From: a bacterium
GTDB taxonomy: Bacteria; Bacillota_I; Bacilli_A; RF39; UBA660
Reading direction: 5' to 3'
Assembly (NCBI GenBank): GCA_030524925.1
Contig: JAUNFS010000006.1
Coordinates: 1 to 42,852 of the forward strand
Length of the DNA stretch: 42,852 bases
In this document: in pieces, positions 40,990 to 42,852 of the stretch
How the letters are laid out: each line of letters opens with the position of its first letter
Numbering within the stretch: the first letter of the stretch is position 1
Translations under genes and position numbers: made by a program
Notes under the pieces: model-generated
The model's database searches: none
What the model was told of the DNA's origin: nothing
What the model saw: the letters and a program-made list of their open reading frames with translations, nothing else

Positions 40990-42852
40990 ATGAGAGAAAA
41001 GTATAGGAAAAGATTGTTAATATATGTTGGAATTTTGTTTTGCTTGATTTCATTAGTTGGTGTGAGTTATGCTGTTTTTAACGGTTATGCTTCACAAAGT
41101 TCAACAAATTCACTTACTGCTACGTGTGTAGAGCTAGTTTTTAGTGGAGAGAACTCCGTTAATTTAACTAATGCTTATCCGATTAGTACTGCGGAAGGTC
41201 TTAAGACGACGCCTTATACTTTTAAGATAAAGAATAATTGTGATAATTATATGCAGTATACAATAATTGCTTCAGTTATTAATACTACAAATGTGCTTGA
41301 TTCTAAGTTTGTTAGAATTGCTTTGGATGGGGATGATGTGGTAAGCCCAACAAATATTAGTGTTTTAAAGAAAATAAATACACCAGCGTCTCTTTCTGGT
41401 TATAGTATTAAAGAAAATTTTGTTTTAAGTGAGACAATGGGAATTAGTAAGAATGAAGAGAAGAACTTTAAGTTTAGAATGTGGCTTGATGGAGATAGTA
41501 GTGAAACTTGGACAAGTGAGCAAGTTGAGGGAATGAATTATCAGTTAAAGATTTCGGTTGTAGCTACTGTTAAGACTAAACCAGCGGATGATTTATATAT
41601 TGCTACTTTAGTTGATGGAGCGGCAAGTAGTTCTTTTCCGACAACTGATGAGTATGATGCGAGCGTGGTTTGTGAAAATGAAAGTGGAACAATTAATACA
41701 GGAGCAACAATTACTTGGAGTGATAATAAGTGGAAGCTAGCAATTGACGATGTTTCTACTGGGGAAACTACATGTACTGTTAAGTTTGTTGAAAGTAAAG
41801 TTAAATTACTGGCCGATGCTATTAAGGGTAAGAATAATAAAAATGTTTCGGTTGTTCAAACAACGCCAGGTTCTGCAGCATCAACTTCTACTGAGGCAGT
41901 TTTAGCAAGTACACAAGATGATTATGGAACTAGCTATTATTTTAGAGGTGCAGTAGAAAATAATTATGTAGAGTACGCTAATATGTGCTGGAGGATAGTA
42001 AGAATAACTGGAAATGGTGCTATAAAATTAGTTCTATATAATTATAATGGATTAACTAGTACTAATAATACTCTAGCAAGTAGTACACCTTGTAATGTAA
42101 CTGGAAACGATTATGCCTTTGCAAGATATGAAGGAGATACTTATACATCAACATTTAATTCAAGTTATAAAGATAATGCTTATGTAGGATTTATGTATGG
42201 CACGGCAGGAGCAAGTTCTTATACAGCTGCTCATGCTAATACTAATCCAAGTACTATGCTTACTAATCTAAATAAATGGTATACAAATGTACTTTCTAAG
42301 CAAGCCGGTTTTAATGATAGTCAGTTAGCAGATACAATATGGTGCAATGATAAGAGTGTAGTAACTGACACAACATTTAAACCTGGTAATTGGACTTTAG
42401 GTACAAATTATGGTTATGCAACTAATAAGAATTATTATAGCGCCACTAAAAGATTGGTACAAGCATCATCATGGAGTGCAGGAGGAACAGGACCTAGTCT
42501 AATATGTCCAAATGATAATAATGGAGGAAAGTTATCAAAGTTTACTGTAAGTGACACAACATATGGTAATGGAGCATTAAGTGGTTATGCTAAAGTTGGA
42601 TTGCTTACTGCAGATGAAATAGTATTTGCTGGTGGTGCTGCATACATGCCAAATTCAACATATTATATAAAAGGTAATGCTAGTTCAAATTATTGGCGGG
42701 CTTTGTCTCCGGGCTACTTTTATGGCGACGACGCTCTCGTTTGGGTTGCTTATGGCGGCGACGGCAGCATTGGCGACGGCTACGTTTACAGCGACATCGG
42801 CGTGCGTCCATCTTTATCACTTAGCTCTGGAGTTAAAATATCTGCCGGTGAT
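40990..42852 (+). CDS. Partial (at least 621 codons) surface protein, paralog of 7478..9712; candidate DGR target
   Basis: GGAGG RBS, MREKYRKRLLIYVGILFCLISLVGVSYAVFN..., YYFRGAVENNY, VGLLTADE, YWRALSP...GVRPSLSL. Open to the window end, so absent from the ORF track. Confidence 0.9.
   Translation, partial: MREKYRKRLLIYVGILFCLISLVGVSYAVFNGYASQSSTNSLTATCVELVFSGENSVNLTNAYPISTAEGLKTTPYTFKIKNNCDNYMQYTIIASVINTTNVLDSKFVRIALDGDDVVSPTNISVLKKINTPASLSGYSIKENFVLSETMGISKNEEKNFKFRMWLDGDSSETWTSEQVEGMNYQLKISVVATVKTKPADDLYIATLVDGAASSSFPTTDEYDASVVCENESGTINTGATITWSDNKWKLAIDDVSTGETTCTVKFVESKVKLLADAIKGKNNKNVSVVQTTPGSAASTSTEAVLASTQDDYGTSYYFRGAVENNYVEYANMCWRIVRITGNGAIKLVLYNYNGLTSTNNTLASSTPCNVTGNDYAFARYEGDTYTSTFNSSYKDNAYVGFMYGTAGASSYTAAHANTNPSTMLTNLNKWYTNVLSKQAGFNDSQLADTIWCNDKSVVTDTTFKPGNWTLGTNYGYATNKNYYSATKRLVQASSWSAGGTGPSLICPNDNNGGKLSKFTVSDTTYGNGALSGYAKVGLLTADEIVFAGGAAYMPNSTYYIKGNASSNYWRALSPGYFYGDDALVWVAYGGDGSIGDGYVYSDIGVRPSLSLSSGVKISAGD
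42691..42810 (+). other. Putative DGR variable region (VR)
   Basis: 20 of 40 codons end in C and none ends in A before the final CCA, in a genome favouring A/T at third positions. Bounded by W...SP and GVRP. Confidence 0.7.

What the first reader, a model, noticed from the sequence alone, without database searches (positions are those of the whole stretch)
42691..42810. Unannotated surface protein carries a DGR variable-region signature with no retroelement in the window
Seen: this 120-nt stretch is abruptly GC-rich and encodes YWRALSPGYFYGDDALVWVAYGGDGSIGDGYVYSDIGVRP. Twenty of 40 codons end in C (GGC, GAC, TAC, AGC, CTC, ATC), unlike the rest of the gene. Known: DGR template repeats are rich in AAC/AAT codons, and adenine-specific mutagenesis converts them to NNC/NNT codons within a C-terminal CLec-fold ending GxRP. 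Inference: this chromosomal, non-phage membrane-anchored protein next to trmD is or recently was hypermutated by a DGR. Its template repeat and RT would lie outside the window, either downstream or acting in trans. I saw no AAC-rich template or RT in the window.
Basis: partly seen in the sequence, partly recalled or inferred. Interest (0 to 1): 0.9.

Follow-up and report, generated by a model that had tools for sequence, protein, structure and literature searches.

The report
DGR variable region, template found elsewhere
The GC-rich patch at the end of this surface-protein gene is a genuine hypermutation target of a diversity-generating retroelement whose template and reverse transcriptase lie on another contig of the same small gut-bacterial genome, a known kind of system seen here in a little-studied lineage.

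Summary
Window 42693-42810 is 59% GC in a 28% GC window, and 20 of its 40 codons end in C. It is a DGR variable region (VR). Its template repeat (TR) lies on contig C25 of the same genome at 391-508, followed on the same strand by a MutS-like ORF, an Avd-like ORF and a reverse transcriptase. The VR differs from the TR at 21 of 34 adenine sites but only 7 of 84 other sites (p=4e-9). All 21 changes are at codon positions 1-2, and the last 12 nt match the TR exactly. The genome holds 25 copies of the C-terminal domain, 10 with VR-like sequence. The domain models confidently as a C-type-lectin-like, DUF6273-like fold. Two additions: the gene is a mosaic, and the sister species' orthologue at the same locus has no VR. 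Orthologous VRs in the two species differ mainly at TR adenines, so the system has acted since they split. Present-day variation at this VR could not be shown. Verdict: a new member of a known kind.

The parts
40969..42852 (+). DGR target gene, 628 codons to the contig end and 3'-truncated. Complete paralogues carry 24-30 residues after the VR and this copy has 14, so roughly 10-16 codons plus the stop are missing. An alternative start at M8 (40990) matches the 621-aa database entry P0001.
41014..41079 (+). N-terminal hydrophobic segment (L16-F37) preceded by KYRKR: a signal anchor or a signal peptide. Export is inferred from the sequence only.
   Evidence: direct reading of the translation. 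In one search, 4 of 76 family members hit Peptidase_M73 (camelysin) and 2 of 76 hit N_methyl at their N-termini.
40969..41910 (+). 5' half of the mosaic gene. It is 75-99% identical per 157-nt bin to the syntenic G017 orthologue and 71-96% to the gene next to the RT on C25:2548-4557, but only 19-55% to VR-bearing paralogues.
41911..42852 (+). 3' half: a C-type-lectin-like (DUF6273-like) domain. It is 80-90% identical per bin to VR-bearing paralogues (71-80% in the last bin, which holds the VR), against 44-83% to the G017 orthologue and the C25 RT-adjacent gene. The structural model covers 41956-42852 (pLDDT 96.1).
42693..42810 (+). Variable region (VR), 118 nt, homologous to the TR at G000:C25:391-508. 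21 of 34 TR-adenine sites are changed (13 to G, 7 to T, 1 to C) and 7 of 84 other sites.
42798..42809 (+). GC-rich 3' element CGGCGTGCGTCC, identical in VR and TR. The two sequences diverge immediately after it, so it is a candidate IMH (initiation of mutagenic homing) core.
   Evidence: co-variation of this element between TR and VR across species
42811..42852 (+). Conserved post-VR tail (SLSLSSGVKISAGD), identical to the tail of the C7 paralogue. Both contigs break at the same base.

Best explanation
Window 42693-42810 is the variable region of a remote (trans) target of a chromosomal diversity-generating retroelement. The cassette is on contig C25 of the same genome, in the order target-gene tail, hairpin-rich spacer, TR (391-508), MutS-like ORF, Avd-like ORF, RT, then two more family genes. 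The inferred mechanism is the established one for DGRs. The TR is transcribed. The RT with Avd copies it into cDNA and misincorporates opposite template adenines. The cDNA then replaces the VR, guided by the shared GC-rich 3' element. Because the TR's 34 adenines sit only at positions 1-2 of AAC, AAT, GAC, GAT and AGC codons, no stop codon can arise, and about 1.2e20 protein variants are possible. The VR encodes the last beta-strands and loops of a C-type-lectin-like (DUF6273-like) domain at the C-terminus of an exported or membrane-anchored protein, so what varies is most likely a ligand-binding surface (inference). The gene is one of 25 paralogous C-domain copies in this ~1 Mb genome, 10 of which carry VR-like sequence. 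It is a mosaic: a locus-specific 5' half joined to a VR-bearing 3' module. Shown here: the TR-VR pair and its adenine bias, the cassette, the fold, the mosaic, and adenine-directed divergence between species. Inferred: that this VR is still rewritten today, its export, and its ligand.
For: (1) TR and cassette., 6 found about 10 related copies in the genome, and one search showed C25:391-508 is the AAC-rich copy. There is one PF00078 match in the genome, at C25:1666-2394 (E 1.6e-15). The RT is 366 aa, with phrog_1423 'Reverse transcriptase' E 4e-71 over residues 5-363. The best named defence RT model in PADLOC scores only 1.9e-22. The best solved relative is 8ub7_A at E 1.2e-22, ahead of retron and group II RTs. 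The RT contains IGNMTSQ and YMDD. Three libraries call the 118-aa ORF Avd-like: Pfam bAvd 6.7e-5, NCBIfam DivGenRetAVD 3.2e-6, PHROG 'Avd protein of DGR' 1.8e-5. The 143-aa ORF hits MutS_I at E 2.7e-6, 28 bits against a cut-off of 20.6. (2) Adenine bias. 21/34 A sites against 7/84 non-A sites, Fisher 4.3e-9. All 21 are at codon positions 1-2, and 3 of the 7 non-A changes are synonymous third positions at the edges. (3) The 12-nt 3' element is identical to the TR, as it is in only 3 of the 10 VRs (C16, C7, C18a). The element differs in G017's TR, and the G017 VR next to that TR carries the same variant. (4) Fold. The AF2 model has pLDDT 96.1 and pTM 0.93. VIA-align gives T. ramosa IgA peptidase residues 38-293 Z 11.7, Legionella Lcl-C Z 7.0, TvpA Z 5.4, TaqVP Z 4.4 and many C-type lectin domains at Z 4.3-5.2. 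25 of 76 family members hit DUF6273. (5) System activity. Orthologous VR genes of G000 and G017 differ at 16/34 against 5/84 sites, and at 26/32 against 9/83 sites (TR-A against non-A), with flanks 83-97% identical. (6) TR codons cannot give stops, and there are 1.2e20 combinations.
Against: The VR has 7 non-adenine differences from today's TR (8 by the gapped aligner). Four are internal and change the amino acid: W to R at 42697, which breaks the WW motif kept by 8 of the 9 other VR copies and by the TR, D to Y at 42715, V to A at 42749 and L to I at 42769. A VR freshly and fully rewritten from this TR would lack them. The C18a VR has only 1 such difference in the local alignment. Two further differences (42708, 42711) match G017's TR rather than G000's, so the 5' end predates a change in the resident TR. 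No contig in four metagenome runs spans the locus, so variation at this VR within populations is not shown. The gene's 3' end and anything downstream of it, such as a hairpin, are missing at the contig end. The Avd scores are below the curated cut-offs of Pfam and NCBIfam. The assembly is 85% complete, so a second, better-matching TR cannot be excluded.
Confidence: 0.9

Rival explanations
1. Relic VR. The stretch was written by the DGR in the past but is no longer a competent or used target. It now evolves by ordinary point mutation, and the GC-rich signature is a fossil.
For: There are 4 internal non-adenine, amino-acid-changing differences from the TR, including loss of the conserved WW motif. 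Two 5' positions carry the state of G017's TR rather than the resident TR's. Several other VRs in the genome look decayed, for example C25:5769-5925 with 21/84 non-A differences and C21 with 16/84, so decay does happen in this family. No population variation was shown.
Against: The 12-nt 3' element is intact and identical to the TR, which is true of only 3 of the 10 VRs. The reading frame is open. The non-A difference rate (7/84) is among the lowest of the 10 copies. The cassette genes are intact. Three of the 7 non-A differences are in the first 19 nt, before the first mutated adenine, where cDNA integration need not reach (that last point is from recalled knowledge of the Bordetella phage system).
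Confidence: 0.3
2. This VR is the target of a different DGR: a second TR/RT that is missing from the 85%-complete assembly, or one that was lost, rather than the C25 cassette.
For: The assembly is incomplete, at 85% with 38 contigs. Some relatives carry 2-3 RT matches (G009, G018, G020, G023). At least three variants of the 3' element occur among G000 and G017 VRs, and some G000 VRs such as C20 match none of the resident TR's 3' end.
Against: The window's VR matches the resident TR's 3' element exactly, unlike C20. Only one RT was found in G000. The remaining non-A differences are few.
Confidence: 0.07
3. The stretch is not DGR-related. It is a GC-rich patch that arose by chance, by horizontal transfer or by biased gene conversion among paralogues.
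For: Gene conversion or recombination among paralogues clearly occurs: the gene is a mosaic, and the tail is identical to C7's.
Against: There is an AAC-rich, non-diversified copy next to an RT and Avd. The adenine-specific difference pattern has p = 4e-9. All changes are at codon positions 1-2. The same pattern holds in 10 copies and between species.
Confidence: 0.02

Closest known systems
Legionella pneumophila DGR (LdtA target), the 'Architecture D' MSL-containing DGRs of Wu et al. 2018 (PMC5758913, passages read)
   Same: It is a chromosomal, non-phage DGR with a small MutS-like accessory gene together with avd. The paper says DGRs with MSL genes also contain avd, and that one MSL is in the Legionella DGR. 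The target is a surface protein with a C-terminal C-lectin-type VR. The Lcl C-terminal (DUF1566-type) fold is the second-best structural match (Z 7.0).
   Different: The window's domain gets no DUF1566 hit in Pfam. The host is a small-genome gut bacterium whose relatives' records say 'Tenericutes' or 'Bacilli', not a proteobacterium. There are 10 VR-like copies rather than one target. I did not see the Legionella cassette order, so I cannot say whether the gene order is the same.
Treponema denticola DGR (TvpA and remote targets)
   Same: One DGR serves several dispersed, paralogous targets. Wu et al. 2018 give seven non-adjacent targets as the highest number in their survey (PMC5758913, passage read). 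TvpA (2y3c) is a structural match at Z 5.4.
   Different: According to the same paper the Treponema cassette has an HRDC accessory gene rather than MSL. TvpA is of the FGE-sulfatase type. Here 10 VR-like copies occur among 25 paralogues in a genome of about 1 Mb.
DUF6273 C-lectin targets of gut-phage DGRs ('tentaclins', PMC10743442, passages read) and the DUF6273 N-terminal domain of the Thomasclavelia ramosa IgA peptidase (PMC12402451, passage read; PDB 9qa6)
   Same: The domain type is the same. 25 of 76 homologues of the window's domain hit DUF6273, and the best structural match is 9qa6_A residues 38-293 (Z 11.7, 191 aligned residues), which the paper annotates as DUF6273. The tentaclin paper describes the VR as forming a surface beta-hairpin of a C-lec domain.
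   Different: Those targets are phage proteins, and in tentaclins the domain and its VR are N-terminal. Here the domain is C-terminal in a cellular protein, and the DGR is chromosomal next to housekeeping genes. The IgA peptidase domain is not reported as DGR-diversified in the passages read.
Trans-acting, multi-locus DGRs of Thiohalocapsa PB-PSB1 (PMC10907252, passages read)
   Same: Remote targets match at non-adenine sites to a TR elsewhere in the genome, and VRs differ in activity. Some targets look inactive although they match a TR.
   Different: That organism has nine DGR loci in a large genome, and its targets are putative antigen sensors or conflict systems. Here a single RT was found in a reduced genome, and the targets are one expanded surface-protein family.

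Membership tests
Diversity-generating retroelement (DGR) target/VR | A TR-VR pair whose differences fall almost only at template adenines | tested here: met
   21/34 A sites against 7/84 non-A sites, Fisher 4.3e-9. The same bias holds in all 10 VR-like copies, with p from 1.6e-3 to 4.3e-14.
Diversity-generating retroelement (DGR) target/VR | A reverse transcriptase encoded beside the TR | tested here: met
   The only PF00078 match in the genome is at C25:1666-2394, with the ORF starting 939 nt after the TR ends, on the same strand. phrog_1423 E 4e-71.
Diversity-generating retroelement (DGR) target/VR | The RT belongs to the DGR clade, by phylogeny and the [I/L]GxxxSQ motif (motif recalled) | tested here: inconclusive
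   IGNMTSQ and YMDD are present. The best solved relative is 8ub7_A (E 1.2e-22), which I recall as the Bordetella phage bRT but could not confirm. No RT phylogeny was built. Defence RT models score much lower.
Diversity-generating retroelement (DGR) target/VR | An Avd accessory protein | tested here: met
   The 118-aa ORF overlapping the RT start scores Pfam bAvd E 6.7e-5, NCBIfam DivGenRetAVD E 3.2e-6 over profile positions 17-104 of 104, and PHROG 'Avd protein of DGR' E 1.8e-5. Its scores are below the Pfam and NCBIfam curated cut-offs, and it has no PDB sequence match.
Diversity-generating retroelement (DGR) target/VR | A shared GC-rich 3' boundary element (IMH/IMH*) after which VR and TR diverge | tested here: met
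   Window 42798-42809 is identical to the TR and the sequences diverge from 42810. The element co-varies between TR and VR in G017. Function in homing is not testable here.
Diversity-generating retroelement (DGR) target/VR | The VR lies in a C-type-lectin (or Ig) fold of the target protein | tested here: met
   The model has pLDDT 96.1. Matches include Lcl-C Z 7.0, TvpA Z 5.4, TaqVP Z 4.4 and many C-type lectin domains at Z 4.3-5.2. The Z values for the C-type lectin domains themselves are middling.
Diversity-generating retroelement (DGR) target/VR | Ongoing diversification of this VR in a population | tested here: inconclusive
   Contigs of 4 runs were laid. Paralogues pile up on the conserved domain and no contig spans the locus. 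Raw reads were not available.
MSL-containing DGRs (Architecture D, Wu et al. 2018) | A small MutS-like accessory ORF (112-283 aa per the paper) together with avd | tested here: met
   The 143-aa ORF hits MutS_I at E 2.7e-6, 28 bits against a cut-off of 20.6, and mutS1 at E 1.3e-5. The Avd-like ORF follows directly. The definition comes from passages of PMC5758913.
DUF6273 (PF19789) | A sequence match to the Pfam model | tested here: inconclusive
   The window's domain has no hit even at E <= 10. 25 of 76 homologues hit, with best E 1.5e-8. The best structural match is a domain annotated DUF6273 (PMC12402451).
DUF1566 / Lcl C-terminal domain (CLec2, category 'd' of Wu et al. 2018) | A sequence match to DUF1566, DUF823 or Fib_succ_major | tested here: not met
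   There are no such Pfam hits for the window protein, and none among the 12 families listed for the 76 members. Only fold similarity to 8q4e was found (Z 7.0).

The most novel reading that the evidence does not exclude
In this genus of ~1 Mb gut bacteria, a single chromosomal DGR maintains a genome-wide repertoire of hypervariable C-lectin surface proteins: 10 VR-like copies among 25 paralogues here, and at least 9 in relative G022. Recombination moves the VR-bearing C-terminal module onto new N-terminal halves, recruiting fresh loci such as this trmD-adjacent gene into the hypermutated set. That would be a two-layer diversification system, module shuffling plus templated hypermutation, in a reduced-genome and probably host- or partner-dependent organism.
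Probability: 0.35. Interest if true: 0.7.

Novelty: new member of a known kind. Interest (0 to 1): 0.5.

Why it matters
DGRs are the only known templated protein-hypermutation systems in prokaryotes. Most described examples have one adjacent target. Here a small genome gives a sizeable paralogue family to one DGR: 25 copies of the ~900-nt domain total about 22.8 kb of 905 kb. The targets are scattered over at least 8 contigs, in a gut lineage for which my literature searches found no DGR description. The searches paired 'diversity-generating retroelement' with 'Tenericutes' (4 unrelated papers), 'RF39' (0 papers) and 'Mollicutes' (2 papers, neither on this by its listing). Large surveys such as PMC8144416 may list such elements in supplements I could not open. 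The mosaic at the trmD locus, with a VR here and none in the sister species, gives a concrete case of how a gene enters a DGR's target set. For annotation, it shows that a VR can be recognised from sequence alone, and that its TR may sit on another contig.

Tried and rejected
Metagenome evidence for variation at this VR. One search listed 21 runs in all, 19 of them holding part of the stretch, across 10 studies. They are animal gut or feces metagenomes where labelled, and all are kept as contigs. laid X1, X2, X3 and X5, four runs from four studies. Summed depth on the conserved domain (41843-42711) was tens to hundreds of times that of the 5' half, because paralogues and relatives pile up there. 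It fell in 42712-42790, and no listed piece spans the locus. This gives no verdict on variation, and I do not use it as evidence either way.

Pfam and NCBIfam on the window protein gave no family above cut-off. PHROGs gave nothing for the C-domain.

Foldseek against the PDB gave no match at E <= 0.001. The fold assignment therefore rests on VIA-align and on homologues' DUF6273 hits.

The Avd-like ORF has no PDB sequence match at E <= 1.

I could not confirm what PDB 8ub7 is. A full-text search for '8UB7' found 0 papers, and the bRT-Avd cryo-EM preprint gives no such code in its searchable text. I recall that 328 aa is the length of the Bordetella phage bRT.

An Rfam search of four loci around the cassette and two targets found no family for the hairpin-rich spacer.

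I looked for a contig that continues past the window's end. The last 20 nt occur only at the C16 end and the C7 start, so the gene's true 3' end and any downstream hairpin could not be examined.

I looked for family members next to trmD in 80 named relatives and found them in only 2 of 80, so synteny gives little beyond the sister species.

The IgA-peptidase paper's passages on the DUF6273 domain gave no binding function for it.

Supplementary tables of the DGR surveys (PMC5758913, PMC8144416) were not opened and may list related elements.
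Full report
WHAT IS THERE. The window is contig C16 of a 905-kb, 38-contig, 85%-complete genome of about 29% GC. The flagged stretch is the end of a 3'-open ORF, 40969..42852, 628 codons. Twenty of its 40 codons end in C, against 25 of 588 in the rest of the gene (p = 7e-15). Its GC content is 0.59, against 0.34 for the gene upstream of it and 0.28 for the window. 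No other 120-nt stretch in the first 42.4 kb exceeds 0.48. Upstream lie a SpoU-type methylase, a GDPD-family protein, RimM and TrmD, so the setting is chromosomal housekeeping DNA.

THE TEMPLATE AND THE RETROELEMENT. A search of the whole genome with the stretch found about 10 related copies. In the alignment, one copy at C25:391-508 is AAC-rich and is followed by a stop and unrelated AT-rich sequence. The others are embedded in long ORFs. The only PF00078 match in the genome lies on the same strand of C25. The cassette reads as follows:
- the tail of a target-type gene at the contig start;
- a spacer of about 330 nt containing three strong hairpins;
- the TR;
- a 143-aa ORF with a MutS domain I match (E 2.7e-6, above the Pfam cut-off);
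- a 118-aa ORF that three libraries call Avd-like (E 3e-6 to 7e-5, below curated cut-offs where these exist);
- a 366-aa RT;
- two more family genes, the first without a VR and the second with a decayed VR.
The RT matches the phage RT family phrog_1423 over nearly its whole length (E 4e-71), far better than any named defence RT model (best 1.9e-22). It carries IGNMTSQ and YMDD; that the first is the DGR-type motif is recalled. Its best solved relative is 8ub7_A (E 1.2e-22), which I recall as the Bordetella phage bRT but could not confirm. Small MutS-like (MSL) accessory genes that co-occur with avd are described by Wu et al. 2018 as 'Architecture D', and one is in the Legionella DGR (PMC5758913, passages read).

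THE ADENINE SIGNATURE. Aligned without gaps, VR 42693-42810 and the TR differ at 28 of 118 positions. Of those, 21 are among the 34 TR adenines and 7 among the 84 other positions (Fisher 4.3e-9). A gapped global aligner counted 8 non-A differences. The adenine changes are 13 to G, 7 to T and 1 to C. Twelve are at codon position 1, nine at position 2 and none at position 3. In the VR's frame the TR reads WWALSPNDFNGNNANVWDVNGDNSNLDNDNVNNNNGVRP, with 14 of 39 codons being AAC or AAT. None of its adenine-bearing codons can mutate to a stop, and 1.2e20 protein variants are possible. The last 12 nt before VR and TR diverge (42798-42809) are identical. Among the 10 VR-like copies only C16, C7 and C18a keep this element intact. 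In the sister species G017 the TR carries a different 3' element, and the VR next to that TR carries the same variant. That is the behaviour expected of an IMH-type recognition element.

AGAINST A FRESH REWRITE. Seven non-adenine differences remain. Three are synonymous third positions at the edges (42708, 42711, 42810). The first two of these match G017's TR, so they probably predate a change in the resident TR. Four are internal and change the amino acid (42697 W to R, 42715 D to Y, 42749 V to A, 42769 L to I). By comparison, C18a has 1 non-A difference in the local alignment. So this VR was written by the DGR but has not been cleanly and fully rewritten from today's TR. Whether it is still rewritten at all is open.

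THE TARGET PROTEIN. The N-terminus has a basic stretch followed by about 22 hydrophobic residues, read directly. This is either a signal anchor or a cleaved signal peptide. The last ~300 residues form a module found in 4,380 proteins in one search and in 2,543 50%-identity clusters in another. The few named ones are hypothetical proteins of 'Tenericutes bacterium' MAGs. With a 76-sequence alignment the module models at pLDDT 96.1. Foldseek found nothing at E <= 0.001. VIA-align against 48,161 chains gave the T. ramosa IgA peptidase N-terminal domain at Z 11.7, Legionella Lcl-C at Z 7.0, a Bacteroides fimbrial protein at Z 6.5, TvpA at Z 5.4, TaqVP at Z 4.4, and many C-type lectin domains at Z 4.3-5.2. 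Pfam does not hit the window's copy, but 25 of its 76 aligned homologues hit DUF6273. The IgA peptidase domain is annotated DUF6273 (PMC12402451, passage read). DUF6273 domains are described as C-lectin-type DGR targets in gut phages (PMC10743442, passages read). The VR covers model residues 247-285, which include three of the last four beta-strands. I could not map surface exposure.

A FAMILY AND A MOSAIC. G000 has 24 merged C-domain loci, or 25 copies because one locus holds two adjacent genes. Ten of them carry VR-like sequence. Complete members are 470-670 aa, with the VR ending 24-30 residues before the C-terminus. Along the window's gene, the first ~940 nt are 75-99% identical per bin to the syntenic gene of G017 and 71-96% to the RT-adjacent gene on C25. 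The last ~940 nt are 80-90% identical to VR-bearing paralogues (71-80% in the bin that holds the VR) but only 44-83% to those two. The G017 orthologue ends in an AT-rich, non-VR version of the domain. So a VR-bearing module and a locus-specific 5' half have been joined by recombination. The direction, whether gain here or loss in G017, is not resolved. Only 2 of 80 named relatives have any family member within 4 kb of trmD.

IS THE SYSTEM ACTIVE? Two orthologous VR genes can be compared between G000 and G017. In the C20/C53 pair the flanks are 92% and 97% identical, and the VRs differ at 16/34 TR-adenine sites against 5/84 others. In the C18a/C9 pair the flanks are 83% and 89% identical, and the VRs differ at 26/32 against 9/83. 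Adenine-directed rewriting has therefore occurred since the species split, though not necessarily at the window's VR. The RT was found in 12 of the 23 other same-genus genomes searched and in the one same-family genome outside the genus. Several relatives' RT matches contain one in-frame stop. Relative G022 has its TR plus at least 9 near-full-length matches on 5 contigs, and G019 has 4. Laying contigs from four metagenome runs on the gene gave no verdict for this locus.

ORGANISM AND HABITAT. TrmD's closest named relative (96% identity) is 'uncultured Tenericutes bacterium UMGS1372'. Others are uncultured Bacilli, Tenericutes or Mycoplasmatota MAGs from gut samples, plus 'Clostridium sp. CAG:1000'. 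Runs that hold parts of the gene are animal gut or feces metagenomes where labelled. That this corresponds to the RF39-type gut lineage is my recollection and was not tested.

COMPARISON AND NOVELTY. Every element is of a known kind: the DGR mechanism, the MSL plus Avd cassette, remote and multiple targets (seven non-adjacent in Treponema per PMC5758913; trans targets in PMC10907252), and C-lectin/DUF6273 targets. What is new is the host lineage, the size of the VR-bearing family relative to the genome, and the documented module swap at this locus. My searches found no description of DGRs in this lineage. Large surveys may include it in supplements that I could not open. I rate it a new member of a known kind, with interest 0.5.

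Noticed in passing
window 7484-9676 (+): A second member of the same surface-protein family lies in the window: an N-domain-like part at 7484-8395 (55% aa identity) and a C-domain at 8774-9676 (49% aa identity). It did not appear among the TR/VR matches, so it seems to lack a VR.
   Followed up: partly
G000 C25:~95-300 (locus L010) and C18:~25640-25870 minus strand (locus L003 ~1245-1420): A hairpin-rich, non-coding element of about 230 nt with three strong stem-loops lies between a target-gene tail and the TR. It is conserved in G017 (L011). A second full copy lies downstream of the C18a target gene, and the first hairpin alone follows the C20 gene. No Rfam family matched. It could be part of the DGR RNA's 5' region, a terminator set, or a duplicated segment.
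   Followed up: partly
window 42852 (contig end); G000 C7:1; G000 C25:1: Contigs C16 and C7 both break at exactly the same base, 42 nt after their VRs, with identical tails. C25 starts just after where a VR would be. Assembly appears to break at VRs or paralogue repeats, so at least one further VR (upstream of the TR) is missing from the assembly.
   Followed up: partly
G017 locus L011:3126-3193 (-): There is an Rfam DUF3800-VIII RNA match (49.1 bits, gathering score 40.2, E 1e-6) downstream of the RT in the sister species' cassette. It was not found in G000's cassette.
   Followed up: no
relatives G022:C7, G023:C5, G019:C5, G020:C84: Four of the DGR RT matches in same-genus genomes contain a single in-frame TAA or TAG. 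These could be broken RTs, sequencing errors or something else.
   Followed up: no
G000 VRs on C20, C14, C18b, C38, C21, C25: The 3' GC-rich element occurs in at least three variants across G000 and G017. Some G000 VRs, such as C20, carry a variant that matches a G017 VR rather than the resident TR. This suggests orphaned targets or exchange of DGRs within the genus.
   Followed up: partly
window 40491-40883 (+): A 130-aa ORF lies between trmD and the target gene and overlaps the trmD end. It has no Pfam match.
   Followed up: no
G000 C25:8377-9542: About 2.4 kb downstream of the cassette's last target gene lie ORFs that look like ribosomal proteins S10 and L3. This is read from their sequences from recall and was not tested. 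It fits a chromosomal rather than prophage location for the DGR.
   Followed up: no
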